64,000 nucleotides of DNA from Saprospira grandis (GCF_027594745.1 NZ_CP110854.1:1308241-1372240), one strand, 5' to 3'; shown: positions 3,712 through 64,000, numbered from the stretch's first letter. The notes: a model not told the origin generated them from the letters alone. Numbers and translations: made by a program.

Positions 3712-3875
3712 TTTTGGGGCTTCCCCTGCGGCCTTCGGCCTTGGGTCGGGCTGTGTCGCAGCTCGCAGGCTTGCTCGGCCCTGCAGCGCTTCGCGCTTTG
3801 GTCTGGCCCTTCGGGCCACTGCTATCCATCCCTAAGCCAAGTCGCTTCGCTCCTTTCTACTGCTTGGAGCAGAGG
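3712..3875 (+). repeat. Intergenic repeat module A, forward
   Basis: TTTTGGGGCTTCCCCTGCGGCCTTCGGCC...CTCGCAGGCTTGCTCGGCCCTGC...GGTCTGGCCCTTCGGGCCACTGCTATCCATCCCTAAGCC. Confidence 0.85.
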
Positions 3876-13399: not shown

Positions 13400-13572
13400 T
13401 TTTGGGGCTGCCCCTGCGGCCTTCGGCCTTGGGTCGGGCTGTGTCGCAGCTCGCAGGTCTGCTCGGCCCTGCGGCGGCTTTGCCGCCTGGGTCTGGCCTG
13501 CGGCCACTGCTGTCCATCCCTCAGCCGCGTCGCTACGCTCCTTTGCGGCCCTTCGGGCCTGTAGGAGGCAGA
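13400..13572 (+). repeat. Intergenic repeat module A, forward
   Basis: TTTTGGGGCTGCCCCTGCGGCCTTCGGCC...CTCGCAGGTCTGCTCGGCCCTGCGGCGGCTTTGCCGCC...CATCCCTCAGCCGCGTCGCTACGCTCCTTTGCGGCCCTTCGGGCC. Confidence 0.85.
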
Positions 13573-14267: not shown

Positions 14268-14440
14268 TTGCAGGGCCGAAGGCCCGCAAAGGAGCGTAGC
14301 GACGCGGCTGAGGGATGGACAGCAGTGGCCGAAGGCCAGACCCAGGCAGCTTTGCTGCCGCAGGGCCGAGCGAACAGCGAGCTGCGACACAGCCCGACCC
14401 AAGGCCGCAGGCCGCAGGGGCAGCCCCAACAAAAAATAAA
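14268..14440 (-). repeat. Intergenic repeat module A, reverse
   Basis: GGGCCGAAGGCCCGCAAAGGAGCGTAGCGACGCGGCTGAGGGATGG...GGCAGCCCCAACAAAAAA. Confidence 0.85.
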
Positions 14441-32555: not shown

Positions 32556-32726
32556 AGAGGACAGGCGGCGAAGCCGCCGCAAAGGAGCGCAGCGACGCGG
32601 CTGAGGGATGGATAGCAGTGGCCCGCAGGGCCAGACCGAAGCGCTTTAGCGCTGAAGGGCCGAGCAGACCTGCGAGCTGCGGCACAGCCCGACCCGCCCG
32701 CAGGGCGGGGCAGCCCCAAAAAAAGA
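32556..32726 (-). repeat. Intergenic repeat module A, reverse, lying between the TPR gene stop and the OMP gene start
   Basis: GGCGGCGAAGCCGCCGCAAAGGAGCGCAGCGACGCGGCTGAGGGATGGATAGCAGTGGCC...GGCCGAGCAGACCTGCGAGCTGCG...GGGCAGCCCCAAAAAAAG. Confidence 0.85.
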
Positions 32727-32731
32727 AAGAT

Positions 32732-43360: not shown

Positions 43361-43578
43361 TATATCATTGCGAAGCAATACCATTGTTGCTGTAGGTTTC
43401 AACCTAAGTTCAATCCATGAGGGTTTTAACCCTCATCCATATATCATTGCGAAGCAATACCATCTGGCTGTAGGTTTCAACCTAAGTTCAATTCATGAGG
43501 GTTTTAACCCTCATCCATATATCATTGCGAAGCAATACCATCTGGCTGTAGGTTTCAACCTACAGTTAAAAGGGCCGA
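43361..43578 (-). repeat. Tandem array (78 bp x about 2.7) of module B (three palindromic hairpins)
   Basis: Units ATATCATTGCGAAGCAATACCATCTGGCTGTAGGTTTCAACCTAAGTTCAATyCATGAGGGTTTTAACCCTCATCCAT repeated at 43363, 43441 and 43519. Confidence 0.9.
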
Positions 43579-43712
43579 AGGCCCGCGGCTGAGGGATGGA
43601 CAGCAGTGGCCGAAGGCCAGACCCAGCCGCTGAAGGCGGCGCAGGGCCGAGCGAACAGCGAGCTGCGAAACAGCCCGACCCAGCCAAAGGCTGGGGCAGC
43701 CCCAAAAAAAGA
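43579..43712 (-). repeat. Intergenic repeat module A, reverse, directly abutting the module-B array
   Basis: GGGCCGAAGGCCCGCGGCTGAGGGATGGACAGCAGTGGCC...GGCCGAGCGAACAGCGAGCTGCGAAACAGCCCGACCC...GGGGCAGCCCCAAAAAAAG. Confidence 0.85.
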
Positions 43713-43768
43713 AAAGGTCCAGCACCGAAGTACTGGACCTTTAAAGGGTTTAGCAAAAGCTAATTAAA

Positions 43769-48342: not shown

Positions 48343-48490
48343 CTAGGGCCGCAAGGCCCTAATTGGCTTAGGGATGGATAGCAGTGGCCCGAAGGGCCAG
48401 AGCCAGGCGCTGAAAGCGCCGCAGGGCCGAGCAGACCTGCGAGCTGCGCCACAGCCCGACCCGACCAAAGGGAGGGGAAGCCCCAAACCC
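48343..48490 (-). repeat. Intergenic repeat module A, reverse (right arm of an inverted pair)
   Basis: GGGCCGCAAGGCCC...GGCTTAGGGATGGATAGCAGTGGCCCGAAGGGCCAGAGCC...GGCCGAGCAGACCTGCGAGCTGCG...GGGGAAGCCCCAAA. Confidence 0.85.
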
Positions 48491-53986: not shown

Positions 53987-54006
53987 GTCCGAATGCAAAG
54001 CCAAAG

Positions 54007-54039
54007 GCCCAACTCCAATAAGGAGTTGGGCCTTTTTTA
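54007..54039. terminator. Bidirectional rho-independent terminator between gldC and the convergent membrane-protein gene
   Basis: GGCCCAACTCC-AATAA-GGAGTTGGGCC followed by TTTTTTAT. Confidence 0.7.
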
Positions 54040-55173
54040 TTCCCGCCAATCTTCCACCCGCCAATGTTTTGCAGGCTGCAAAAGCGGTAGTTCCCTATAC
54101 ATTAAGGTATTGGCCCGCCAAGAAACCTCTTGCCCTCCCCATTCTCCAAATAGGAAGAGTTGGTCACTAGTTTGGCGATAATATAAACGAGCCCAAAGGC
54201 TATCGCTCTGCAAATCGTAGAGGGTAAGGCCCTCTTTGGGCAAATAGCGCAAGCGATAGCTCTTTTGCCTCCTCCCCTGCTGCATGATCCAGTAGCCCCG
54301 ACGATGGATATAAAATTGTTGGCCATCTTCTAGGGCATAGGCCCCATGCAAAGGCGGCCTAGGCTCCAAATCGTCGTTCCAATGCTGCCGATGCCGATAG
54401 GGCCAAGCAATATTCAGAAGGATCAATAGGAGGAGAGCTGTTTTGAGCACTCTTTTTTGCCCTTTGCGAAAACTAGGCCCTAAGGACTGTTTTACCGCCA
54501 AAGCCTGCCCGCTAGACCAAACCCAAAGCCCTTTTAATCTGGGCCAAAGAAGATATAAGGCCATCCATAAAAGCCCAGCCGAGTATATCTTGACATTAAT
54601 GTCAAAACTGATGTTGATGAGCAAAACCTGCCCCATAACCCCAGCCGCTAATAAAGCGCCCAATGCTCGACTAGGACGATAGAATAATGCTAATGCCGCT
54701 AAGAGTTCTACTATACCGGTCCAAAAACTATAGGTCCAAGAACTGCCCATGACCGACCAAAAGGCTAGATCTTTCTCAATATAGCCTAAAGGCTGATATA
54801 AGGTATTGGGCTCGGGCAAAAAGAACTGCTGTTTGAGCAGTTTGTCTAGACCATAACGCCCCAGTTGCATACCTAAGTAATAGGCGATACCCAATTGTAA
54901 ATAAGACTGAAACTGCTGACTCCAGTTTTTTTTGTCCCAAACTAATAGTAAAGCCGCCTCCGCAGCCAAAACAATGAGGTGCAAATAAAAGCCGGTACTA
55001 TCCGATGCTAAAACATAGTAGCCCCCTTCTATCCCTAAAAGCGCCCCGCAAGCCTTATAAAAGGGCTCAAATGCTTCGGCCCAAAATCTAGAGTAGGCAG
55101 GCCATAGCGGCTGTTCAATTGGAGCCGTTAGGGCAAAAAGAATTAAGTATATAGTCGTCCAACGATAAAGCAT
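54037..55173 (-). CDS. Polytopic membrane protein, hypothetical
   Basis: 378-aa ORF with at least 8 predicted TM helices in the N-terminal 250 aa and a Trp/Arg-rich soluble C-terminal domain. Confidence 0.45.
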   Translation of the reverse strand: MLYRWTTIYLILFALTAPIEQPLWPAYSRFWAEAFEPFYKACGALLGIEGGYYVLASDSTGFYLHLIVLAAEAALLLVWDKKNWSQQFQSYLQLGIAYYLGMQLGRYGLDKLLKQQFFLPEPNTLYQPLGYIEKDLAFWSVMGSSWTYSFWTGIVELLAALALFYRPSRALGALLAAGVMGQVLLINISFDINVKIYSAGLLWMALYLLWPRLKGLWVWSSGQALAVKQSLGPSFRKGQKRVLKTALLLLILLNIAWPYRHRQHWNDDLEPRPPLHGAYALEDGQQFYIHRRGYWIMQQGRRQKSYRLRYLPKEGLTLYDLQSDSLWARLYYRQTSDQLFLFGEWGGQEVSWRANTLMYRELPLLQPAKHWRVEDWRE

Positions 55174-55447
55174 CTGTATTTTTTTTAGCTGTTCTATCTA
55201 ATCCACGGAGCTAATCCGAGATGTCCGTAGACCTCCGTGGCGCATTCTAAGCTCCTCTTTTAATTTTCCTATACCCCTCCTAATTAAAAAATAAAAGGCG
55301 CTTAGGCCCTAAAATAAGCGATCCTTTATTTAGAAGGATAAAAAAAGGCCCCAAACTGTAGTTTGGGGCCTTTCTGAGCCATCAAATTATTGAGCATAAA
55401 AGCTTGAGCAAGGAATTAGGCCAGCCAATAATAGCGAAAGCGGCAAG

Positions 55448-55590
55448 AAGGCCCGAAGGGCCGCAGGCCTAGCGATGTGCAGCAGTGGCCGTCAGGCCAG
55501 ACCCAGCCGCTGAAAGCGGCGCAGGGCCGAGCGAATAGCGAGCTGCGGAACGTAGCGCCGACGAGCGAAGCGAGGCGGAGGCCCAAAAAA
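55448..55590 (-). repeat. Intergenic repeat module A, reverse
   Basis: GGCCCGAAGGGCCGCAGGCCTAGCGATGTGCAGCAGTGGCCGTCAGGCCAGACCC...GGCCGAGCGAATAGCGAGCTGCGGAACGTAGCGCC...GGAGGCCCAAAAAAA. Confidence 0.85.
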
Positions 55591-55627
55591 ATCGCCCTTA
55601 TCCTCGATCATTTTCTTCAGAAGTGCT

Positions 55628-57130
55628 CTAATTATTGGTTAATTGGGCAAGCGGGCTATCTTTTTTGGCAATAAAGTCAATAGCCTTGGCTAGATCTTGG
55701 GCAAACACCCGATCGCCTTCAATGGCGGGCACGACTTGGCGGAAAGCTTGGCGGCAATTTTCGATAGCGGCAGAGCTAGTTAGAGTTCTAAACTCTAGGC
55801 TTTGCATAGCCGCCATTAGTTCAATAGCCAAAAGGCGTTCTAGATTATGGACCAAGCGATAAAGTTTGGTGCCTGCATTGGCGGCCATACTCACATGGTC
55901 CTCTTGGCCATTGCAAGAGACCAGAGAATCTACAGAAGCGGGGGTACAGAGCTGTTTATTTTGGCTAGCAATAGAGGCCGCGGTATATTGGCCGATCATC
56001 AGGCCAGAGTGCAGGCCCGAATTGGGAGTAAGGAAAGCGGGCAGGCCTCTTTTTCCGCCAATGAGTTGATACAGACGGCGTTCCGAGATACTTCCAAGTT
56101 CGGAGAGGGCCAATGCCATAAAATCGAGCGTAAGGGCAAGCGGTTGGGCGTGGAAATTTCCGCCAGAGAGAATCGCATCTGTTTCGGGGAAGATATTGGG
56201 GTTGTCGGTGACGCTATTGAGCTCTGTAGTGAGTACCTTTTTGGCATATTGTAGGGCATCTTTGCTGGCCCCATGCACTTGAGGCACGCAGCGGAAAGAA
56301 TAGGGATCTTGCACCACCTCTTTTTCGGCCTTCATCAGGGGAGAATCGGCCAGTAGAGTTCTAATATTTTTGGCCGTTTGTAATTGGCCATTATGAGGGC
56401 GAATAAGATGCAGACGTTCATCAAAGGGGCTAAGTAAACCGCCAAAGCCATCAATAGAAATAGCGGCAATGCTATCGGCCCAAAGGCTAAGTTTTTCTGC
56501 CTTCCAGTAGCTATAAATCCCGTAGGCCAAAGAAAACTGCGTACCATTGAGCAGGGCTAGGCCCTCCTTCATTTCGAGAGCAAGAGGCTGCCAGCCCAAT
56601 TTTTCTAGGGCTTGGGCCGAGGGCATGCGTTCCCCTTTAAAATAGACCTCTCCCTCGCCTAAAATGGGAAGAGAAAGGTGGGCCAGGGGGGCCAAATCGC
56701 CAGAGGCGCCTAGGCTACCGAGTTGATAAATGACGGGAATGAGGTCTGCATTATAGCTATCAATGAGGCGTTGGAGCAAAATAGGGCGAACGCCAGAAAA
56801 CCCTTGGGCCAGATTCTGTATTTTGAGTAGTAGCATGAGGCGGGCCAGCTCTTGGGGCACCAAATCGCCCGTACCAAAAGCATGAGAGCGGACCAAATTA
56901 TGCTGCAGTTCGTTTAGGGCCTCCTTGCCAATTTTGACATCGCAAAGGGAGCCAAAGCCCGTATTGATGCCATAAAAAGAGTCTTCTGAGGCTGCCACCT
57001 TCTGCTCTAGAAAATCGCGGCAAGCCTTTACTTTGGTCCAAAGGGAGTCCGTTAATTCAATTTTTGTATGTTCAGCCCAAAGCTGATGCAATGCGGCTAA
57101 TGTTAGTTCTTTTTCGGTAAGCAAATGCAT
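55628..57130 (-). CDS. hutH: Histidine ammonia-lyase (MIO-containing aromatic amino-acid lyase family)
   Basis: MIO-forming GASGDLAPLAHL motif; substrate-selectivity residues RSHAFG (Ser-His, diagnostic for HAL rather than TAL/PAL); 500 aa. Confidence 0.8.
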   Translation of the reverse strand: MHLLTEKELTLAALHQLWAEHTKIELTDSLWTKVKACRDFLEQKVAASEDSFYGINTGFGSLCDVKIGKEALNELQHNLVRSHAFGTGDLVPQELARLMLLLKIQNLAQGFSGVRPILLQRLIDSYNADLIPVIYQLGSLGASGDLAPLAHLSLPILGEGEVYFKGERMPSAQALEKLGWQPLALEMKEGLALLNGTQFSLAYGIYSYWKAEKLSLWADSIAAISIDGFGGLLSPFDERLHLIRPHNGQLQTAKNIRTLLADSPLMKAEKEVVQDPYSFRCVPQVHGASKDALQYAKKVLTTELNSVTDNPNIFPETDAILSGGNFHAQPLALTLDFMALALSELGSISERRLYQLIGGKRGLPAFLTPNSGLHSGLMIGQYTAASIASQNKQLCTPASVDSLVSCNGQEDHVSMAANAGTKLYRLVHNLERLLAIELMAAMQSLEFRTLTSSAAIENCRQAFRQVVPAIEGDRVFAQDLAKAIDFIAKKDSPLAQLTNN

Positions 57131-57233
57131 AAATTGTTAGCTGTTGAGGCCCATTTTGGGCCATAAAAATCAATTATTTTCTGTTTGTCTGCGGAAAATA
57201 TACGGAAGAGAATTTATAAATAAATGAAGCAAT

Positions 57234-57911
57234 ATGAATAGCTCGAAAAATAAGGTCAAGTTCTTGGCCCGCGCCTACTTTTTCCTCCTTCCTTGGAGCC
57301 GTCCTAAGAGATTATGGGCTTTGGCGGCCCTATTGCTCTTAATTTTCCTGAGTTTTCAGTACCTCATTTCTCATTGGCAGGCTGCGCTGGGGCCATTGGC
57401 CTCTGGGGAGGAGATTCAGCTACTGGATGCTCAGTTTGGCCTCAAATCTCAAGAGATTATTCCTCTTTTAGCGCATCTGGGGCCTGTTTATCGGCAAGAT
57501 CAGAGCTACTTATACATGAGTTTAGACTTGATTTATCCCCTTGCTTACGGATTGTTTTTTTCGGCTTGGCTACTTTTTCTGCTCCAAAACTCATTTCCTC
57601 GTTATTTGGGCAGTCTTTACCAGCTCTGTTTTTTCCCTTTTTTGATCTCTATCACTGATCTTTTAGAAAATATATCTTTTATATTGTTGCTTTGGCGCTA
57701 TCCTCGGCTTCCCGCTTGGCTTTGGTCCTTGGCCTCCTTTTTTAATCAGGCAAAATGGATTGGAGTCAACTTGCTGCTCATCTTCCTCCTCTTAGGATAC
57801 ATTGCTCGTTGGATGAACCGAGTAGAAGTGGCCGAATTTAAGGCCATGCAAAAGCGCTTTGGCTCAAAGAACTACAATCATTACACTAAAAAACAAGATC
57901 AAGATGTCTAA
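57234..57911 (+). CDS. Membrane protein, hypothetical (5-6 TM helices)
   Basis: 225-aa hydrophobic ORF; its stop overlaps the start of the carbonic anhydrase gene by 8 nt. Confidence 0.45.
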   Translation: MNSSKNKVKFLARAYFFLLPWSRPKRLWALAALLLLIFLSFQYLISHWQAALGPLASGEEIQLLDAQFGLKSQEIIPLLAHLGPVYRQDQSYLYMSLDLIYPLAYGLFFSAWLLFLLQNSFPRYLGSLYQLCFFPFLISITDLLENISFILLLWRYPRLPAWLWSLASFFNQAKWIGVNLLLIFLLLGYIARWMNRVEVAEFKAMQKRFGSKNYNHYTKKQDQDV

Positions 57912-58494
57912 GAACTTATTATGGGATGCGGCCTTGGCCAAATTGAAAGCAGGAAACGACCGCTTTGTCAATGAACAAGCAGAAGGAAAAAAACAGGCCA
58001 TGGACCGCCGCCAAGAGCTTACTAAAGGGCAGGCGCCTTGGGCGATTATTTTGAGTTGTGCCGACTCTAGAGTGGTGCCCGAACTTGCCTTTGACACTGG
58101 CCTGGGCGAGCTCTTTGTGATTCGGGTAGCGGGCAATATTGCCAATACCTCTACCATTGCGAGTATTGAGTATGCCGTGGCCCACCTAGACGTTAATTTG
58201 ATTGTGGTCATGGGCCACGAAAGCTGCGGAGCAGTTACGGCCGCCATGGCCGAGGGCGATGCAGAAAGCAATAACCTCAAGCATTTGTTGGACTATATTC
58301 AGCCGGCGCTTTCGGCCTGCCCCAACTGCCAAGATGTGAACGAAGTGGTTAAGAAAAATGCCGAACTAACGGCAGAAGCCCTAGCGGCCAACTCCAGCAT
58401 CATCCAAAATGAAATCCAGAATGGGGAGCTCAAGGTCTTTTCGGCCTACTACAACCTCTCTGACGGACATGTAGACTTTTTTGAGGAGGCTTAG
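57904..58494 (+). CDS. Beta-class carbonic anhydrase
   Basis: Zinc-ligand motifs CADSRV and HESCGAV (C..D.R / H..CG) at canonical spacing; about 196 aa from the ATG at 57904. Confidence 0.85.
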   Translation: MSKNLLWDAALAKLKAGNDRFVNEQAEGKKQAMDRRQELTKGQAPWAIILSCADSRVVPELAFDTGLGELFVIRVAGNIANTSTIASIEYAVAHLDVNLIVVMGHESCGAVTAAMAEGDAESNNLKHLLDYIQPALSACPNCQDVNEVVKKNAELTAEALAANSSIIQNEIQNGELKVFSAYYNLSDGHVDFFEEA

Positions 58495-58514
58495 GCCAAA
58501 TTGAAAAGGGGAAT

Positions 58515-58550
58515 AAAAAACGCCAGCTCGATAAAAGCTGGCGTTTTTTT
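58515..58550 (+). terminator. Rho-independent terminator after the carbonic anhydrase gene
   Basis: AAAAAACGCCAGCT-CGATAA-AAGCTGGCGTTTTTTT. Confidence 0.75.
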
Positions 58551-58565
58551 GTGGGCCTATATTAT

Positions 58566-58628
58566 TTTTTTTTGGGGCCCGCGGCCAGCTTTGCTGGCCG
58601 CCGCTATGCTGCGGGGCTCACTGTGCCG
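58566..58628 (+). repeat. 5'-terminal 58-60 bp fragment of repeat module A; direct duplicate of the 5' end of the copy at 59723
   Basis: TTTTTTTTGGGGCCCGCGGCCAGCTTTGCTGGCCGCCGCTATGCTGCGGGGCTCAC matches 59723-59783 exactly, then diverges into AT-rich DNA. Confidence 0.85.
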
Positions 58629-58635
58629 CTAATAT

Positions 58636-59559
58636 CTAACATGGGAATATTATTTTCTTTAACCCTTTCTTTTTGGATATACAAGGGCCAAGAACTAGGG
58701 GGCTACAGTCATAAATCTCTAATCTTTCTAAATTTTCGCATTTTAAATTAGACAAATCTGTACTAGTCGTCCCATCTCTATTAACCGTCCCAAACAAACT
58801 TAAAGACTTCAAATTGAGTTTATCTAGCCTTATTAGAGATAAAGGTATATTATAACAGCTTAACTTTTTCAAAAATCTAAGGTGGTGTATTTCTCTACAA
58901 AAATCCAGATTTATTCTACCACCTCCACCTATAGATAAATCTATTTCTCTTAAATTAGGGAGGCGATCCAAAAAAGGTATACTATCTACATACATATAGC
59001 ATGAAGCTGAAAAACGCTCTAATGTGTCAGGGAGACAGATGTACCAATCTTTCAGAGATGGGATGGAGCGTAGTTCTAATTCTTTGAGTTTGTCTAATTC
59101 GATAATTTCTTCAAAATTTTTCACAGAAGAATTTAGAGACAAGCTTTCTATAGCGCTCTGCTGTATCGCTTTAAAATCTATTCTGCTAAAAGATAAATGT
59201 AGTTCTTTTAGTGTGCCTAGATCTTCTACGAAGCTAATATCTTCGGTTGTTGTCTCCAAACGGGATATATCTAAAGTACCTAATTCTGAAGGAAATGAGG
59301 CCCTACTTAAAGGTATTTCAGTAAAACCTGTAAGTATCAAATACTTTATTTGGGGCAGTCGATCTAATAGATATAGTATAGATTCATTTTCTTCATATAC
59401 GGTAAGTGAAATGGTTTCCAACCAATTCATTTTTGAAATTTTATCTAGTTGTTGCTCTGTTATTAGGTCTAACCACCCGCCTCCAAACTCCTCGCATAAA
59501 AAGAGACTTCCAGATCTTTCAATATTTTCCTCTTCGATTAAACCCTCGATATTGTCCAT
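58636..59559 (-). CDS. Leucine-rich-repeat (LRR) protein encoded on a low-GC cassette
   Basis: Repeated LxxLxLxxN/CxxL units (LKELHLSFSRID, LKELELRSIPSL, LREIDLSIGG, LKSLSLFGTV, LERLEIYDCSPL). Markedly AT-rich codon usage, unlike flanking genes; no signal peptide seen. Confidence 0.6.
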   Translation of the reverse strand: MDNIEGLIEEENIERSGSLFLCEEFGGGWLDLITEQQLDKISKMNWLETISLTVYEENESILYLLDRLPQIKYLILTGFTEIPLSRASFPSELGTLDISRLETTTEDISFVEDLGTLKELHLSFSRIDFKAIQQSAIESLSLNSSVKNFEEIIELDKLKELELRSIPSLKDWYICLPDTLERFSASCYMYVDSIPFLDRLPNLREIDLSIGGGGRINLDFCREIHHLRFLKKLSCYNIPLSLIRLDKLNLKSLSLFGTVNRDGTTSTDLSNLKCENLERLEIYDCSPLVLGPCISKKKGLKKIIFPC

Positions 59560-59722
59560 GCAAATATTTTTAGTTAGATAATCCCATAAAGCTAAAAAAA
59601 TAGTTTTTCATTTTTAATAAAAAAACTTTAAATCACAATTGCTCATGGCAAACAAAATTCTTGTTCTTAAATGAGTCGCGGACAGTAGTGGGAGCAGAAT
59701 TATTAAGCACCTATATTATTGT

Positions 59723-59915
59723 TTTTTGGGGCCCGCGGCCAGCTTTGCTGGCCGCCGCTATGCTGCGGGGCTCACAGGTCTGTTCGGCCCTTCGCTTTTT
59801 CGCTTTGCTCAAAAGCTCGGTCTGGCCTTCGGCCACCCCTCCGCAGCGCTGGGCCGCTCATCGGAGCGGTTTTGTTTGGGCGTTCTGCTTTGGCGGCTTG
59901 GCCTTTCCTTTTAAG
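59723..59915 (+). repeat. Intergenic repeat module A, forward (variant with GGCCAGCTTTGCTGGCC first hairpin)
   Basis: TTTTTTGGGGCCCGCGGCCAGCTTTGCTGGCCGCCGCTATGCTGCGGGGCTCACAGGTCTGTTCGGCCCTTCG...GGTCTGGCCTTCGGCCACCCCTCCGCAGCGCTGGGCCGCTCATCGGAGCGG. Confidence 0.85.
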
Positions 59916-60039
59916 CGGTATTCGTCGCTGCGCTCCTCATTCGCCAATATGTCCCCGCCCACCCAGCCCTCTGCGGGATTCCCTAAGGAATCCCTCAGGG
60001 AGGCGGGCAACAAGCTTGCTGCAGACTTGGTCCAAATTC

Positions 60040-60118
60040 AACGCATGAGGGTTGAAACCCTCATGCCTATAAGATGGCGAAGCAATACCGCTCTTGCTGT
60101 AGGTGTTCAGCTACAGCT
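60040..60118 (-). repeat. Module B (three hairpins, partly degenerate), reverse
   Basis: ATGAGGGTTGAAACCCTCAT / GGCGAAGCAATACC / CTGTAGGTGTTCAGCTACAG. Confidence 0.7.
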
Positions 60119-60275
60119 AAAAAGGGCCGAAGGCCCGCAGGCTGAGGGATGGATAGCAGTGGCCCAAAGGGCCAGACCCAGCCGCCTTTGGCGGCGCAGG
60201 GCCGAGCAGACCTGCGAGCTGCGACACAGCCCGACCCGAAGGCCCAAAGGGCCGAAGGGGCAGCCCCAAAAAAAG
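60119..60275 (-). repeat. Intergenic repeat module A, reverse; with 59723-59915 it forms an inverted pair bracketing module B
   Basis: GGGCCGAAGGCCCGCAGGCTGAGGGATGGATAGCAGTGGCCC...GGCCGAGCAGACCTGCGAGCTGCGACACAGCCCGACCC...GGGGCAGCCCCAAAAAAAG. Confidence 0.85.
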
Positions 60276-60278
60276 AAA

Positions 60279-61565
60279 CTACTCCCCCTCCCAGCGGGCA
60301 AAAAGCAAACAACTATTCACATCTCCAAAGCCAAAACTCGCCTTGGCCATATAGCGCAAATCTGCCGCCTCCATTTGCAGGGGAATACAGGCAGCAGAAA
60401 TCTGGGCCGCAATCTCGGGATGAAGATCTTCGGCATTTTTGCTGGGGTGCAAAAAGCCATGGACCAATTGCAAGACCACCGCCACCGACTCAATAGCTCC
60501 CGCCGCAGATAAACAATGACCAATCAAGGATTTTAGGCTATTAATCTTAGGGAAATCATCGGCAGAGCGGCCCAAAGCCCGCAGCCAAGCCCCAATTTCG
60601 GCAGGATCGCCCATGGTGGCCGTCAGATGGCCCGAAATAGCGTCTAGCTCCTGCGCAGCAATGCCCGCATCGGCCAAAGCCAAGCGAATACAGCGCTCTA
60701 TCGCCTTGATGTTGGGAGCCGTCATGCTGCCCCCCTGACGCTGACCGCCCGCATTTAAGTGCCCCCCTTTTAGCTCGGCATAAATGTGCGCGCCACGGGC
60801 TTGAGCCGAGGCCAAACTCTCTAAAACCAATGCGCCAGCGCCGCTGCCCGGCACAAAACCCGCCGCCTGCTCGCTCATTGGGCGAGAAGCCTGCTCTGGG
60901 CGGTCATTAAACTTGCGGCAAAGCACCCGCATCGAATCAAAACCCGCCCAAATATATGGACCAGAACTGTTGCAGCTACCGACCAGCATCCGCTCCGCTC
61001 GTCCCGACCGAATACGATCATAGCCCATTAATATGGCCTCACTGCCCGTGCTGCAAGCCGCCGAATTAGAACTCAACTGATTGCCAAGGCCCAAAAAACC
61101 GCCCAAATAAGCGCTGATGCTGCTCTCCATCGTCTGTTGAATCAAAGAAGAGCCAATGCGGCGGACCTTGCCCGCATCCACCTTATAAATTCCCTCTCGA
61201 ACCACCTCAATACTAGACTGCCCGCCGCCAAAAATGCAGCCCGCCTCCCAATCGGGTTCCTCTTCCTTTTCAGAAATTGGCAAGGCGGCATCCTGCCAAG
61301 CCTCTAGGCCCGCCAAACAGCCATACAAAAGGCCAGAGCCCTGAATATATCGCCTTTGTAAGGGCGTCAAGAAGCTATTAATGTACTCTTCGGTCAGCGG
61401 AGGGCTGCCTGCGACTCGACAAGCAAACTGTAGCTCCTCCAAATCTGGACGATAGCTAATTCCCGACTTTCCCGACTGCAAAGCGGCCAAAAAATCGGCC
61501 TTTCCCAAGGCGTTGGGAGCCACCACCCCCAAACCCGTAATCACGACTCTATTTTCCTGCATCAT
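60279..61565 (-). CDS. Beta-ketoacyl-ACP synthase (KAS I/II-type, Cys-His-His elongating ketosynthase)
   Basis: Active-site SAACSTG (Cys), GHLTATMGDPAE and SLIGHCLSAAG (His/His); 428 aa. Confidence 0.85.
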   Translation of the reverse strand: MMQENRVVITGLGVVAPNALGKADFLAALQSGKSGISYRPDLEELQFACRVAGSPPLTEEYINSFLTPLQRRYIQGSGLLYGCLAGLEAWQDAALPISEKEEEPDWEAGCIFGGGQSSIEVVREGIYKVDAGKVRRIGSSLIQQTMESSISAYLGGFLGLGNQLSSNSAACSTGSEAILMGYDRIRSGRAERMLVGSCNSSGPYIWAGFDSMRVLCRKFNDRPEQASRPMSEQAAGFVPGSGAGALVLESLASAQARGAHIYAELKGGHLNAGGQRQGGSMTAPNIKAIERCIRLALADAGIAAQELDAISGHLTATMGDPAEIGAWLRALGRSADDFPKINSLKSLIGHCLSAAGAIESVAVVLQLVHGFLHPSKNAEDLHPEIAAQISAACIPLQMEAADLRYMAKASFGFGDVNSCLLFARWEGE

Positions 61566-62010
61566 GGCTATTTTTTTTGGTCCACATTCCCGCTAATTCG
61601 GCCTTAGCGACCAAATCGCCAGCCTCATTATAGGCCGAGGCCGTCACTCGAAGCTGTTGGAGACGAAATAATTTCTTTTTGGCCTCTACCCGCAGCAGCT
61701 CTCCAGGGCGATGGAGCTGGTAGAAATTCACCTTAGAGCTACTAAAAGCAATTTTGGGCACCTCCTGCAGCTCCTCTTTCAATAAATAAATGCCTAGGCA
61801 AACCAGGCCAATTTGAGCCATGCACTCCAAGAGCAGCACCCCCGGCGTAATGGGGTCCTCGGGAAAATGGTCCGCATAAAAAGGGGCATCCTCTGCAAAG
61901 CGGTATTGGCCAATAACGCCCTCCTCGTTCAGCTCCAACAACTCATCTACAAAGCAGAAACTGGGACCATAGGGAAGCAAGGCCAAAATATCTTGATAAT
62001 TTTCTTTCAT
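61549..62010 (-). CDS. FabZ/FabA-like 3-hydroxyacyl-ACP dehydratase (hotdog fold)
   Basis: HFP.DPI.PGVL..E..AQ motif (HFPEDPITPGVLLLECMAQ); 153 aa; overlaps the KAS gene by 17 nt. Confidence 0.8.
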   Translation of the reverse strand: MKENYQDILALLPYGPSFCFVDELLELNEEGVIGQYRFAEDAPFYADHFPEDPITPGVLLLECMAQIGLVCLGIYLLKEELQEVPKIAFSSSKVNFYQLHRPGELLRVEAKKKLFRLQQLRVTASAYNEAGDLVAKAELAGMWTKKNSHDAGK

Positions 62011-62016
62011 CTTTTC

Positions 62017-62802
62017 TTAAATCAATCGTTCTCCCCCATCTACGGGGATAATAGCGCCATTAATCCAGGCCGATTCTGCTCGGCAAAGCAGCTCGATAAC
62101 TTTGGCCACATCTTCGGCCTTAGTCATTCGGCCCAAAGGGTTTCGACTTTTGGCAAATTGGGCCAAATCATCGCTGCCTGGAATCAGTTGAAAAGAGCGA
62201 GTATTCATCATGCCCGCCTGTACAATATTGGCTCGGATGCCCAGAGGCGCATACTCTAGGGCCATAGAACGGATGATGGCCTCTAGGGCCGTTTTGGCGG
62301 CAGATACAGCCGCATAATGGGACCAAGCCCGCTGGTTGCCGCCACTACTGAGGCCCAAAACTCGGGCATCTTCGGCAAAGCGGCCTAGAGCAATTAATCC
62401 CTGCGCCCAATCGACAATACTATAAGCCATATTTTGGGCCGTGAGCTGAAAATCAGTACTCGTCAAATTATTCTGCCCTAAAAAAGCCTTGAGATTTCCC
62501 TTGGCAATACTATGCAGCAACAGCCGAAAACGCGCCCCAGCAGGCAGGCGGTTCGAGAGCTCGGCCAAAGAGCGGGCAATTTGCTCCTTCTGCGTAGCAT
62601 CCACATTATAATGCAAAATGCTTACGCCCGTTTCTAGGGCCAAGGCCTGAAAACGAGCCTGGGCCTCTCGGGCATCGGCTCGCCTTTCTCGATAATAAAT
62701 GCAAAGCGACATGCCTTTTTTGGCCAGTACTTGGGCCGCAGCCCAACCTAATCCAGAAGAGCCCCCTAAAATGAGCCCCCAAAGTTCTTTTTCCTTATAC
62801 AT
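62017..62802 (-). CDS. SDR-family reductase with FabI-like Y-x6-K catalytic motif (putative enoyl-ACP reductase)
   Basis: N-terminal Rossmann GGSSGLG; catalytic YAAVSAAK (Y-x6-K, spacing characteristic of FabI rather than the classical YxxxK) followed by ANIVQAGMMNT, cf. E. coli FabI NAISAGPIRT. Confidence 0.65.
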   Translation of the reverse strand: MYKEKELWGLILGGSSGLGWAAAQVLAKKGMSLCIYYRERRADAREAQARFQALALETGVSILHYNVDATQKEQIARSLAELSNRLPAGARFRLLLHSIAKGNLKAFLGQNNLTSTDFQLTAQNMAYSIVDWAQGLIALGRFAEDARVLGLSSGGNQRAWSHYAAVSAAKTALEAIIRSMALEYAPLGIRANIVQAGMMNTRSFQLIPGSDDLAQFAKSRNPLGRMTKAEDVAKVIELLCRAESAWINGAIIPVDGGERLI

Positions 62803-62829
62803 GGGTTTACTAATTTTCTGGGGCGAAGC

Positions 62830-63888
62830 CTACTCCCAATTTAATAATAGCCGCTGAGCCGAAAAGCCTGGGCCAAAGCTGAGCATCAGGCCCTTTTCGC
62901 CTGCGGCAATCTCCTTTTCTAGATAGCGCTCGAGCACATAGAGCACCGTGGCCGAAGACATATTGCCATAAAGGCGCAAGACCTCCTTGGTCTCCTCGAT
63001 ATTTTTGCCCAAATCGGCAAAAAGGCCCTCTACCATCTGTACAATCTTTTTGCCGCCGGGATGAAAAATCAAATGCTCAATCTCTTCGATCGTCAAGCCA
63101 TTCTTTTCAATAAAAGGAAAAAGGACCGACTTAAAATGCCGCTCAATTTTATTGGGCACTTCCTTGTCCAAAATCATTTGAAGGCCCGTATTGCGCAGCT
63201 TGAAGCCCATCATATCAATTTCGTCATAAAAATGATACATTTCTCCTGCAATGATGGCGGGTTTTAGCTCCTCGGAGGGGCCCAGAATGGTACAAACCGC
63301 TCCATCGCCAAAAATGGCCGCACTGACCATATTGACCATGCTCATATCATCCTGCTGAAAAGTAGCCGTAGGCGACTCAAAAGCGACAATAGCCGCCCGC
63401 TTGCCCGGATTGGCCAAAAGCAGATTGTAGGCATAAATCAAAGCGGAGGTTCCCCCCGCACAGCCCATTTCTGTTACGGGCAAACGCATAATATCTTGAC
63501 GCATTCTCAGCGCATTAATTAAGTAGGCATCTATGGAGGGAATCATAATGCCCGTACAGCTCACACTAATGATTATATCGATATCGGTAGGCTGCAAATT
63601 GGCTTTTTTGAGGGCCCCTTCTACGGCTTGCTGCGTCAGTAGGGTATATTCCTCGGCATAACGGGCATTCTTTTCCTCAAAGGAGGTTTGCTGAAACACC
63701 TCTTCGATGTCCATAATGGAGTAGCGACGGTCTACCTGCGCATAGCGAAAAATACGCTCCACCTTACGGCGAAAGCGTTCGTCTTGGCCCTTGGCCTGCA
63801 GCCAAAGATCGATATAGGGTAAAATATCGGCTGTAGATCTAGAATAAGGCGGCAGAGCCTTATGTGTGGAAAGTATTTTTATAGACAA
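62830..63888 (-). CDS. Type III polyketide synthase (chalcone/stilbene synthase superfamily)
   Basis: Active-site Cys context MGCAGGTSAL; HPGGKKI; GNMSSATV (cf. CHS GNMSSACV); C-terminal SFGPGFS (GFGPG loop). These motifs match type III PKS, not FabH. Start codon appears to be TTG. Confidence 0.8.
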   Translation of the reverse strand: MSIKILSTHKALPPYSRSTADILPYIDLWLQAKGQDERFRRKVERIFRYAQVDRRYSIMDIEEVFQQTSFEEKNARYAEEYTLLTQQAVEGALKKANLQPTDIDIIISVSCTGIMIPSIDAYLINALRMRQDIMRLPVTEMGCAGGTSALIYAYNLLLANPGKRAAIVAFESPTATFQQDDMSMVNMVSAAIFGDGAVCTILGPSEELKPAIIAGEMYHFYDEIDMMGFKLRNTGLQMILDKEVPNKIERHFKSVLFPFIEKNGLTIEEIEHLIFHPGGKKIVQMVEGLFADLGKNIEETKEVLRLYGNMSSATVLYVLERYLEKEIAAGEKGLMLSFGPGFSAQRLLLNWE

Positions 63889-64000
63889 GAGAGTATATTT
63901 TAAGTTTTTTGGGGTAAGCGATTTTTAAAATACGAGAAAAAATAGGCTATGGAGTTATTTAGCTGCTTTTTTATCTTTCTCCAAATGGAATCACTTCCTT

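What the first reader, a model, noticed from the sequence alone, without database searches (positions are those of the whole stretch)
60279..64000. Left edge of a biosynthetic cluster: type III PKS with its own KAS, FabZ-like dehydratase and FabI-like reductase (runs off the window)
Four tightly packed co-oriented genes, with overlaps or gaps under 30 bp: a chalcone-synthase-family type III PKS (Cys-His-Asn motifs MGCAGGTSAL/HPGG/GNMSSA/GFGPG), an SDR with FabI-type Y-x6-K, a FabZ-like dehydratase and a CHH ketosynthase. A dedicated KS/DH/ER set beside a type III PKS is the arrangement seen where a specialised fatty-acyl starter is built for alkylresorcinol/alkylpyrone-type lipids or pigment chains. 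The cluster starts upstream beyond coordinate 64000, so its ACP, KR and tailoring genes are not visible. It lies directly next to the composite repeat and the LRR cassette.
Basis: partly seen in the sequence, partly recalled or inferred. Interest (0 to 1): 0.55.

Follow-up and report, generated by a model that had tools for sequence, protein, structure and literature searches.

The report
Stripped-down Bacteroidota type III PKS operon
The four genes are real and form a complete, selectively maintained operon (a type III polyketide synthase plus a fatty-acid-synthase-like reductase, dehydratase and ketosynthase). It is a reduced Saprospira version of an uncharacterised phenolic-lipid gene cluster found across Bacteroidota, not the edge of a bigger cluster running off the window.

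Summary
Observation confirmed. Four co-oriented minus-strand genes (gaps 27 and 6 bp, overlap 17 bp) encode:
- a type III PKS with Cys143/His276/Asn309;
- a FabL-like SDR with Y-x6-K;
- a FabZ-like dehydratase with His48/Glu62;
- a Cys-His-His ketosynthase.

None is a housekeeping fab gene, since all score far below the NCBIfam equivalog cut-offs.

Contigs from the same and sister Saprospira grandis strains show that the PKS is the first gene of the operon. Beyond coordinate 64000 lie a divergent Ser/Thr-dehydratase-like gene and a bestrophin gene, which are not conserved partners.

In 85 other Bacteroidota loci the canonical cluster is FAD-oxidoreductase > methyltransferase > PKS > (reductase) > dehydratase > ketosynthase > ACP > PPTase. 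No ketoreductase is present in any locus.

Saprospira alone lacks the methyltransferase, oxidoreductase, ACP and PPTase. An abundant ~130-bp repeat sits where the ACP gene would be. All four retained genes are nevertheless under strong purifying selection (dN/dS 0.03-0.07).

Most likely function (inferred): the operon makes a long-chain alkylresorcinol or alkylpyrone-type lipid. The KS/DH/ER would shape the fatty-acyl starter on an ACP supplied in trans.

I found no paper characterising this cluster. I rate it a new variant of a known kind, of moderate interest.

The parts
62830..63888 (-). Type III polyketide synthase (352 aa, TTG start); first gene of the operon; catalytic Cys143/His276/Asn309
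   Evidence: Pfam Chal_sti_synt_N/C are above cut-off. Best PDB hit is PKS11 (4JAO, E 3.8e-48). Orthologues in Flavobacteriia, Chitinophagia and Saprospiria are 64-69% identical. The triad is invariant in 91/91 sequences. dN/dS vs L087 is 0.029.
62017..62802 (-). FabL-like SDR, probable enoyl-thioester reductase (261 aa; GGSSGLG nucleotide motif; Y163-x6-K170)
   Evidence: Top NCBIfam hit is FabL (133.5 bits, cut-off 328). Top PDB hit is B. subtilis FabL 3OIC. Y/K are conserved in 50/52 and 52/52 sequences. The gene is present in 53/83 related loci. dN/dS is 0.072.
61549..62010 (-). FabZ-like hot-dog 3-hydroxyacyl-thioester dehydratase (153 aa; His48/Glu62)
   Evidence: Pfam FabA-like scores 47.5 bits. 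NCBIfam FabZ scores 64.5 bits (cut-off 113). His/Glu are invariant in 76/76 sequences. The gene is present in 76/80 loci. dN/dS is 0.050.
60279..61565 (-). FabF/FabB-like elongating ketosynthase (428 aa; Cys171/His313/Lys345/His350); overlaps the dehydratase gene by 17 nt; last gene of the operon
   Evidence: NCBIfam fabF scores 255 bits (cut-off 494). Best PDB hit is the Brucella beta-ketoacyl synthase 3U0F (E 5.7e-55). Catalytic residues are invariant in 75/75 sequences. The gene is present in 71/74 loci. dN/dS is 0.048.
63889..64000 (.). First 112 bp of the 139-bp AT-rich intergenic region between the PKS and the divergent PALP gene (presumed divergent promoter region); this is the 5' boundary of the operon
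   Evidence: In L001 the PALP gene ends at position 9861 and the PKS starts at 10001. L002 is identical to the window and continues into PALP and bestrophin.
59700..60278 (.). 3' boundary: a composite of GC-rich ~130-bp repeat units lying immediately after the KS stop codon, in the position occupied by the ACP (and PPTase) genes in related clusters
   Evidence: More than 25 partial or complete copies occur in intergenic regions of the window. Metagenome contigs L002-L004 and L087 all end within a few bases of the KS stop. No ACP-like ORF is detectable here.

Best explanation
This is a complete four-gene operon, PKS-III > FabL-like enoyl reductase > FabZ-like dehydratase > FabF/B-like ketosynthase. 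It is a reduced Saprospira derivative of a phylum-wide Bacteroidota cluster: FAD oxidoreductase > SAM methyltransferase > PKS-III > (ER) > DH > KS > ACP > PPTase.

Proposed mechanism:
1. The KS condenses malonyl-ACP with a fatty-acyl thioester from primary metabolism.
2. A ketoreductase supplied in trans (housekeeping FabG) reduces the 3-oxo group. No cluster of this family encodes a KR.
3. The dehydratase and the FabL-like reductase complete the cycle. This gives an elongated or otherwise specialised acyl chain.
4. The type III PKS takes this acyl thioester as starter, adds malonyl-CoA units and cyclises the product to a long-chain alkylresorcinol or alkyl-alpha-pyrone head group.

Saprospira has no cluster ACP, PPTase, methyltransferase or flavoprotein at the locus. 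The chain must therefore ride on an ACP encoded elsewhere (most simply AcpP) or on CoA, and the phenolic head is expected to stay unmethylated and not further hydroxylated.

Shown: gene content, boundaries, intact catalytic residues, purifying selection, conserved synteny, and the absence of the four partner genes from 74 kb.
Inferred: substrates, order of steps, use of AcpP and FabG, and product class.
For: - Domains and catalytic residues.
- Operon boundaries from the same and sister strains.
- Conserved synteny in 80 genome loci plus 6 metagenome loci. Presence where contig room allows is MT 85/85, OR 77/81, ER 53/83, DH 76/80, KS 71/74, ACP 69/71, PPT 54/69.
- The 85-aa downstream gene is an ACP: profile vs PDB ACPs gives E 1.3e-13, with its Ser aligned to the DSL serine; NCBIfam ACP models score 48.6 bits. 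The 187-aa gene carries an ACPS-type PPTase domain.
- Purifying selection on all four Saprospira genes: dN/dS 0.029-0.072 at dS 0.37-1.19. The PKS shows 36-41 synonymous and 0 non-synonymous differences against three other strains.
- The OR-MT-PKS-III triad is the experimentally established alkylresorcinol/hierridin/alkylquinone operon type (srsABC, hidABC, planctomycete operons; PMC10896814 and PMC8086630).
- The nearest solved PKS is the long-chain alkylpyrone synthase PKS11.
- YceI-like lipid-binding genes (23 loci) and MMPL transporter genes (8 loci) flank the cluster in other Bacteroidota. This is consistent with a lipid product.
Against: - No product has been measured, and resorcinol versus pyrone cannot be told from sequence.
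- The operon has no KR, no acyltransferase and (here) no ACP, so three activities must be borrowed.
- The ER module and the DH-KS-ACP module vary independently. MT-PKS-ER clusters without DH/KS exist in the closest relatives. Flavobacterium and Polaribacter have DH-KS-ACP without ER. The three FAS-like enzymes therefore need not act as one cycle.
- Assignment of the SDR as an ER rests on the Y-x6-K motif and FabL similarity, both below the equivalog cut-off.
- Absence of ACP and MT elsewhere in the S. grandis genome is only a soft negative. None of the closest MT clusters, and none of the 120 best ACP hits by the contig length listed for its cluster representative (cluster members were not listed for ACP), lies on a contig of chromosome size.
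Confidence: 0.6

Rival explanations
1. Head-first order. The type III PKS first builds a small aromatic or pyrone acyl-CoA (DpgA-like, remaining thioester-bound). The KS/DH(/ER) module then extends it on an ACP into an omega-aryl fatty acid. Where the ER is absent the product would be an aryl-polyene-like chain.
For: - The top NCBIfam model for the PKS is DpgA (147.7 bits), an enzyme whose product stays CoA-bound.
- Precomputed Pfam hits on the dehydratase include ApeI-like and ApeP-like, the aryl-polyene dehydratases.
- ER presence or absence splits lineages. This would give saturated versus unsaturated chains.
Against: - The DpgA score is far below its cut-off of 425.
- The best solved relative is the long-chain-acyl enzyme PKS11.
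- The universal partners (MT 85/85, OR 77/81) are those of alkylresorcinol operons that use fatty-acyl starters (PMC10896814).
- My own Pfam scan found only the generic FabA-like domain on the dehydratase.
- There is no KS/CLF pair, no KR and no aryl-activating enzyme.
Confidence: 0.13
2. The SDR is a ketoreductase, not an enoyl reductase. KS-KR-DH would then give a 2-enoyl (unsaturated) starter, and the pathway would need no borrowed FabG.
For: - FabG-type models also hit the SDR (81-85 bits).
- No other KR is encoded in any of the clusters.
- SDR function is hard to call from sequence.
Against: - The active-site spacing is Y-x6-K, not the Y-x3-K of FabG-type KRs, and it is conserved in 50/52 orthologues.
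- FabL is the best hit in both NCBIfam (133.5 bits vs 85 for FabG) and PDB (3OIC, E 2.4e-22, against about 1e-15 for the next hits).
- Lineages with KS-DH-ACP but no SDR (Flavobacterium, Polaribacter) would then lack any KR as well.
Confidence: 0.15
3. One reading: the four genes are only the edge of a larger cluster that continues past coordinate 64000 with ACP, KR and tailoring genes.
For: In other Bacteroidota two tailoring genes (FAD oxidoreductase, methyltransferase) do lie directly upstream of the PKS.
Against: - In the same strain (L002, 100% identical) and in two other Saprospira genomes, the upstream genes are a divergent PALP dehydratase-like gene, bestrophin and trigger factor.
- These are absent from all 80 non-Saprospira loci examined.
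- HMM searches of all six frames of the window plus the 10 kb beyond it find no MT, OR, ACP or PPTase.
Confidence: 0.03
4. It is ordinary fatty-acid synthesis (a FabH-led fab operon), or a decaying remnant with no function.
For: - All four proteins belong to FAS-related superfamilies.
- Four of the eight canonical cluster genes are missing, and a mobile-looking repeat abuts the KS.
Against: - FabH, FabF, FabZ and FabL/FabI equivalog cut-offs are missed by a factor of about two or more, up to about fourfold.
- The PKS passes both CHS-family Pfam models.
- There are no frameshifts or stops, the catalytic residues are intact and dN/dS is 0.03-0.07.
Confidence: 0.03

Closest known systems
srsABC (Streptomyces griseus), hidABC (Cyanobium) and planctomycete methyltransferase-oxidoreductase-type III PKS operons, which make alkylresorcinols, hierridins and alkylquinones
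   Same: The Bacteroidota orthologues of this PKS sit in the same triad, FAD oxidoreductase + SAM methyltransferase + type III PKS. Those operons are shown to make C15-C17 alkylresorcinols from fatty-acyl starters (PMC10896814; PMC8086630). In 'S. ferox' the PKS operon also includes a lipid/isoprenoid-binding protein gene, which may parallel the YceI-like genes flanking the cluster in 23 Bacteroidota loci.
   Different: The window's operon has neither the methyltransferase nor the oxidoreductase. It carries KS, DH and ER genes that those operons lack.
Azotobacter vinelandii arsABCD (type I FAS ArsA/ArsD feeding type III PKSs ArsB/ArsC) and Dictyostelium Steely (FAS fused to a type III PKS)
   Same: A dedicated fatty-acid-synthase-like machinery is encoded next to a type III PKS. 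In the ars system it supplies a special C22-C26 acyl starter directly (PMC3098273; details from established knowledge of Funa/Miyanaga 2006-2008).
   Different: Here the FAS-like parts are discrete type II proteins and form an incomplete set (KS, DH, ER only). There is no KR or AT, and in Saprospira no ACP. No sequence-level orthology to ArsA/ArsD was tested.
Myxococcus xanthus ftp and cyanobacterial cyl pathways (a dedicated ACP delivers the acyl starter to a type III PKS)
   Same: In the canonical Bacteroidota cluster a dedicated ACP and PPTase accompany the PKS. This fits an acyl-ACP starter, as for FtpA and CylI. CylI is the fourth best solved relative.
   Different: Those systems load the ACP with a fatty acyl-AMP ligase. 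The Bacteroidota clusters have a KS/DH instead, and no FAAL was detected in the conserved core. Saprospira lacks the ACP.
Mycobacterium tuberculosis PKS11 (long-chain alkylpyrone synthase)
   Same: It is the closest solved structure, aligned end to end (query residues 7-351, E 3.8e-48), with the same Cys-His-Asn triad.
   Different: Its score is only 167.6 bits, against 514-759 bits for the Bacteroidota orthologues, so it is a distant relative. Its genomic context also differs.
Housekeeping type II FAS enzymes FabF/FabB, FabZ and FabL/FabI
   Same: Same folds and catalytic residues.
   Different: All score far below the NCBIfam equivalog cut-offs (255 vs 494; 64.5 vs 113; 133.5 vs 328). They are encoded with a type III PKS rather than with fabD-fabG-acpP.

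Membership tests
Type III PKS (chalcone/stilbene synthase superfamily) | Both CHS-family Pfam domains above gathering threshold | tested here: met
   Chal_sti_synt_N 67.5 bits and Chal_sti_synt_C 72.5 bits, cut-off 27.
Type III PKS (chalcone/stilbene synthase superfamily) | Cys-His-Asn catalytic triad | tested here: met
   C143, H276 and N309 are present and invariant in 91/91 family members. They align with PKS11.
   FabH models score 59.9-73.7 bits against cut-offs of 249-292. No fabD, fabG or acpP lies in the window or in the 10 kb beyond it.
srs/hid-type alkylresorcinol operon | Type III PKS adjacent to a SAM methyltransferase and an FAD oxidoreductase | tested here: not met
   Neither gene is found in the 74 kb of S. 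grandis sequence available. Orthologous PKSs elsewhere do meet the feature: MT 85/85 and OR 77/81.
srs/hid-type alkylresorcinol operon | The product is a 5-alkylresorcinol made from a fatty-acyl starter plus three malonyl-CoA | not testable with these tools
   Needs enzymology or metabolite analysis.
Canonical Bacteroidota T3PKS cluster (OR-MT-PKS-(ER)-DH-KS-ACP-PPT), defined here | Orthologous PKS (at least 64% identity) followed by DH and KS orthologues in the same order and strand | tested here: met
   In the loci that carry each gene, DH is 35-50% and KS 51-59% identical and in the same order (DH in 75 and KS in 74 of the 80 loci). Presence is DH 76/80 and KS 71/74.
Canonical Bacteroidota T3PKS cluster (OR-MT-PKS-(ER)-DH-KS-ACP-PPT), defined here | Dedicated ACP (and usually a PPTase) immediately downstream of the KS | tested here: not met
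   ACP is present in 69/71 other loci. In the window the KS is followed by a repeat and an LRR gene. There is no ACP or PPTase signal (E > 0.4).
Enoyl-ACP reductase FabL/FabI | Y-x6-K active-site spacing with a Rossmann glycine motif | tested here: met
   Y163-x6-K170 and GGSSGLG are present. The residues align with the Tyr and Lys of B. subtilis FabL 3OIC and are conserved.
Enoyl-ACP reductase FabL/FabI | Equivalog-level score | tested here: not met
   FabL scores 133.5 bits vs 328. FabI models score 70-78 bits vs 337-477.
FabZ dehydratase | Hot-dog fold with a His/Glu dyad; equivalog score | tested here: inconclusive
   The dyad is present and invariant and the protein is FabZ-like by PDB. 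The score of 64.5 bits is below the cut-off of 113. It is a relative, not the housekeeping enzyme.
Elongating KS (FabF/FabB class) | Cys-His-His triad plus the active-site Lys | tested here: met
   C171, H313, K345 and H350 align with 3U0F and are invariant in 75/75 sequences. The fabF equivalog cut-off is not reached (255 vs 494).
Flexirubin / aryl-polyene cluster | Tyrosine ammonia-lyase, KS/CLF pair, KR, DarA/DarB | tested here: not met
   The nearby ammonia-lyase is a true hutH (602 bits vs cut-off 539; FlxA model 328 vs 700). The StlD/DarB model scores 21.7 bits vs 450. No CLF or KR is present.

The most novel reading that the evidence does not exclude
The Bacteroidota cluster would be an undescribed hybrid. 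In it a discrete, KR-less type II FAS-like module (KS + DH, with or without ER, plus its own ACP and PPTase) works hand in hand with a type III PKS to make a lipid class not yet seen in this phylum.

The Saprospira operon would then be a natural minimal version. It would show that the KS/DH/ER can operate without their dedicated carrier protein, either on AcpP or directly on CoA thioesters. Alternatively the order could be head-first, giving omega-resorcinyl or pyronyl fatty acids rather than alkylresorcinols.
Probability: 0.2. Interest if true: 0.6.

Novelty: new variant of a known kind. Interest (0 to 1): 0.38.

Why it matters
Type III PKS clusters make up roughly 9-11% of the biosynthetic clusters predicted in Flavobacteriaceae (PMC7440613, PMC10734526). 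I found no report of their product or of their KS/DH/ACP partners.

This analysis defines the conserved eight-gene architecture. It links that architecture to the experimentally known alkylresorcinol triad. It also identifies Saprospira grandis as the one lineage that keeps the PKS, reductase, dehydratase and ketosynthase under strong selection while lacking the carrier protein and both tailoring enzymes.

That makes S. grandis a convenient natural 'minimal set'. It could be used to test which steps need the dedicated ACP and what the untailored product is. The result also corrects the idea that important genes lie just outside the window.

Tried and rejected
1. Flexirubin/TAL link. The ammonia-lyase at 55628-57130 looked suggestive. 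It passes the hutH cut-offs and fails the FlxA model, so I rejected the link.
2. PALP and bestrophin as cluster members. They are absent from all 80 non-Saprospira loci examined and the PALP protein looks like a Ser/Thr dehydratase. Rejected.
3. Hidden ACP, PPTase, MT or OR genes in the window or the flank. tblastn at E up to 10 and unfiltered profile-HMM searches of all six-frame ORFs of 35 aa or more found nothing.
4. Relocated MT or ACP elsewhere in S. grandis. Homologue searches seeded with the closest relatives' MT and ACP, plus a cluster-member listing for the MT, showed no hit on a contig of chromosome size. This is only a soft negative, because divergent copies and non-representative cluster members could be missed.
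5. Literature. Eight searches found no paper on this Bacteroidota cluster or on any Saprospira polyketide.
6. A 'second PKS' seen upstream in some Flavobacteriaceae loci. It is followed by accB/accC-like genes and is most likely FabH merged into the family by my loose clustering. I identified it by eye only and did not pursue it.
7. Promoter and terminator scans gave counts no higher than shuffled controls, so they are uninformative.
8. A phylogeny against SrsA, ArsB/C, HidC and FtpA could not be built.

Full report
**1. What is in the sequence**

Four minus-strand ORFs occupy 60279-63888:
- a 352-aa protein at 63888..62830 (TTG start);
- a 261-aa protein at 62802..62017;
- a 153-aa protein at 62010..61549;
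- a 428-aa protein at 61565..60279.

They are separated by 27 bp and 6 bp, and the last pair overlaps by 17 nt.

Domain and family evidence for each protein:
- **PKS.** It carries both chalcone/stilbene-synthase domains above threshold. NCBIfam FabH models reach only 60-74 bits against cut-offs of 249-292. The best solved relatives are type III PKSs: M. tuberculosis PKS11 (E 3.8e-48), then THNS, CylI and Steely1.
- **SDR.** Its best hit is FabL, both in NCBIfam (133.5 bits, cut-off 328) and in the PDB (B. subtilis FabL 3OIC). Its Tyr163 and Lys170 align with the FabL Y-x6-K pair.
- **Dehydratase.** It is FabZ-like with the HFPxxPxxPGVLxxE His/Glu dyad.
- **KS.** It is roughly equidistant from FabB and FabF and has the Cys-His-His triad and the active-site Lys.

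The motif reads SFGPG rather than GFGPG. The nearest reductase is FabL rather than FabI.

**2. Where the window comes from and what lies beyond 64000**

The exact PKS protein is encoded on the Saprospira grandis str. Lewin chromosome (CP002831.1; locus L001) and on several short metagenome contigs.

The window is 96% identical to Lewin. It is 100% identical over 3756 nt to contig L002, which continues 1.9 kb past the window end.

In L002, in L001 and in a more distant Saprospira contig (L087, 87% nt identity) the arrangement is the same. The PKS is preceded by a 139-bp AT-rich spacer. Beyond it, on the opposite strand, lie a PALP enzyme resembling Ser/Thr dehydratases and a bestrophin-family protein. 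Trigger factor and ArsR-type regulators follow.

The PKS is therefore the first gene of the operon. There is no ACP, KR or tailoring gene upstream.

Downstream, the KS stop codon is followed directly by a composite of a GC-rich ~130-bp repeat. More than 25 copies of this repeat occur in intergenic regions of the window. An LRR protein gene comes next. All short-read contigs break at this repeat.

**3. Comparative context**

The PKS is unusually conserved. The best 120 database hits are 65-97% identical. The best 80 are 64-69% identical and come from Flavobacteriaceae, Schleiferiaceae/Cryomorphaceae, Chitinophagaceae, Sphingobacteriales and Saprospiraceae.

I called ORFs in these loci and clustered them. 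Together with six loci from closer metagenomic relatives, this reveals one canonical co-directional cluster:
- an FAD-binding, geranylgeranyl-reductase/UbiH-like oxidoreductase;
- a SAM methyltransferase;
- the PKS;
- optionally the FabL-like SDR;
- the dehydratase;
- the KS;
- an 85-aa protein;
- a roughly 190-aa protein.

The 85-aa protein is an acyl carrier protein. A profile search against PDB ACPs gives E 1.3e-13, with an invariant Ser aligned to the phosphopantetheine serine, and NCBIfam agrees. The roughly 190-aa protein has an ACPS-type phosphopantetheinyl transferase domain.

| Gene | Loci with the gene / loci with enough contig room |
|---|---|
| MT | 85/85 |
| OR | 77/81 |
| ER | 53/83 |
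| DH | 76/80 |
| KS | 71/74 |
| ACP | 69/71 |
| PPTase | 54/69 |

No ketoreductase or acyltransferase is part of the conserved set. YceI-like lipid-binding proteins (23 loci) and MMPL transporters (8 loci) are frequent neighbours.

**4. Saprospira is the outlier**

It is the only lineage without the methyltransferase. It also lacks the oxidoreductase, ACP and PPTase.
- tblastn at E up to 10 and unfiltered HMM searches of every six-frame ORF find none of them in the window plus the 10 kb beyond it.
- Database searches seeded with the MT and ACP of the closest relatives gave no hit on a contig of chromosome size. For the ACP this rests on the contig length listed for each cluster representative. 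This is a soft negative.

On a neighbour-joining tree of the PKS, Saprospira is sister to a clade whose clusters are (OR-)MT-PKS-ER without DH, KS or ACP. The next outgroup (L091, L084) has the full set. Gene content is thus in flux in this part of the tree, and the Saprospira arrangement is best read as secondary loss.

The operon is not decaying. Against L087, dN/dS is 0.029 for the PKS, 0.072 for the SDR, 0.050 for the DH and 0.048 for the KS, at dS 0.37-1.19. Three other strains differ from the window's PKS by 36-41 synonymous and zero non-synonymous changes. All catalytic residues are intact and family-invariant.

**5. Mechanism**

The OR-MT-type III PKS triad is the signature of experimentally characterised alkylresorcinol, hierridin and alkylquinone operons. 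Examples are srsABC, hidABC and the planctomycete operons, which yield C15-C17 alkylresorcinols from fatty-acyl starters (PMC10896814, PMC8086630). Dedicated fatty-acid synthases feeding type III PKSs are known from Azotobacter ars (PMC3098273).

By analogy, I infer that the Bacteroidota KS/DH(/ER)/ACP module prepares or channels a specialised acyl starter. FabG and FabD would be borrowed from primary metabolism. The PKS would then convert the starter into an alkylresorcinol or alkylpyrone, which is methylated and hydroxylated in most lineages.

In Saprospira the product should be the untailored phenolic lipid. The acyl chain must be carried by an ACP encoded elsewhere (most simply AcpP) or by CoA. 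These steps are inference; only the gene content, residues, selection and synteny are shown.

Weak points of this model:
- The ER module and the DH-KS-ACP module vary independently.
- The KR is missing everywhere.
- The ring type cannot be predicted from sequence.

**6. Rivals**

- **Head-first order.** The PKS would make an aromatic acyl-CoA that the KS/DH/ER then elongate. This is not excluded, but it has little support. The DpgA hit is far below its cut-off, the context is that of an alkylresorcinol operon, and the best solved relative uses long-chain acyl starters.
- **The SDR as a KR.** This is disfavoured by the conserved Y-x6-K motif and the FabL similarity.
- **Ordinary fab operon or pseudogene remnant.** Both are contradicted.
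This is contradicted.

**7. Novelty and score**

Genome-mining papers routinely list 'T3PKS' clusters in Flavobacteriaceae without a product. Eight literature searches found nothing on this cluster's KS/DH/ACP extension or on Saprospira polyketides.

The finding is a new variant of a known kind: a phenolic-lipid type III PKS operon with discrete, incomplete FAS-like partners, here in a uniquely reduced form. It is a sound, moderately interesting lead for natural-product biochemistry. It is not a surprise at the level of principle. Interest: 0.38.

Noticed in passing
window 59700-60290, with copies at e.g. 3712-3838, 13400-13526, 14306-14434, 32599-32728, 43484-43714 and 48345-48487: A GC-rich repeat unit of about 130 bp, 70-87% identical between copies, occurs more than 25 times in intergenic regions of the 64-kb window on both strands. 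It looks like a REP/MITE-type element. Metagenome contigs L002-L004 and L087 all terminate at the copy next to the KS gene.
   Followed up: partly
window 54000-64000 versus L001 and L002: The window is not the Lewin reference strain. It is 96% identical in nucleotides to CP002831.1, with conserved gene order. It is 100% identical to a Logan assembly contig of run SRR23239775.
   Followed up: yes
window 55628-57130 (-): The aromatic amino-acid lyase near the operon is a bona fide histidine ammonia-lyase (hutH, 602-627 bits, above cut-off). It is not a flexirubin-type tyrosine ammonia-lyase, so it gives no link to aryl-polyene or flexirubin chemistry.
   Followed up: yes
L001 3358-5418 versus L087 2868-3559: In the Lewin strain a Transposase_mut/MULE gene (L001 3759-4955) sits between two ArsR/HTH_5 regulator genes. 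In the other Saprospira contig those two genes are adjacent, so this looks like a strain-specific IS insertion about 5 kb upstream of the operon.
   Followed up: no
L009-L081 (e.g. L040 5493-6011; L030 7914-10166): In other Bacteroidota the cluster is often flanked by a YceI-like lipid-binding protein gene (23 loci), a DAO-type FAD oxidoreductase gene (32 loci) and, in 8 loci, an MMPL-family transporter gene. None of these is near the Saprospira operon.
   Followed up: partly
L086 7217-10991; L088 6096-10515; L090 7282-10087: The closest non-Saprospira relatives of the PKS (73-79% identity) carry MT-PKS-SDR clusters with no dehydratase, KS or ACP, and L086 has a second methyltransferase. The FabL-like SDR therefore stays with the PKS even when the rest of the FAS-like module is gone, which the simple 'one FAS cycle' model does not explain.
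   Followed up: partly
window 57234-57911 (+) and 57859-58494 (+): A 225-aa hydrophobic ORF has no Pfam or NCBIfam match. It sits next to a beta-class carbonic anhydrase gene, and their longest ORFs overlap by about 50 nt. The database gene call for the anhydrase is shorter (196 aa).
   Followed up: no
L015, L017, L022, L026, L027 and others, about 6-7 kb upstream of the PKS: A 'second PKS' in my clustering is followed by genes that look by eye like biotin carboxyl carrier protein and biotin carboxylase. It is most likely the housekeeping fabH-accB-accC operon lying close to the T3PKS cluster in some Flavobacteriaceae.
   Followed up: no
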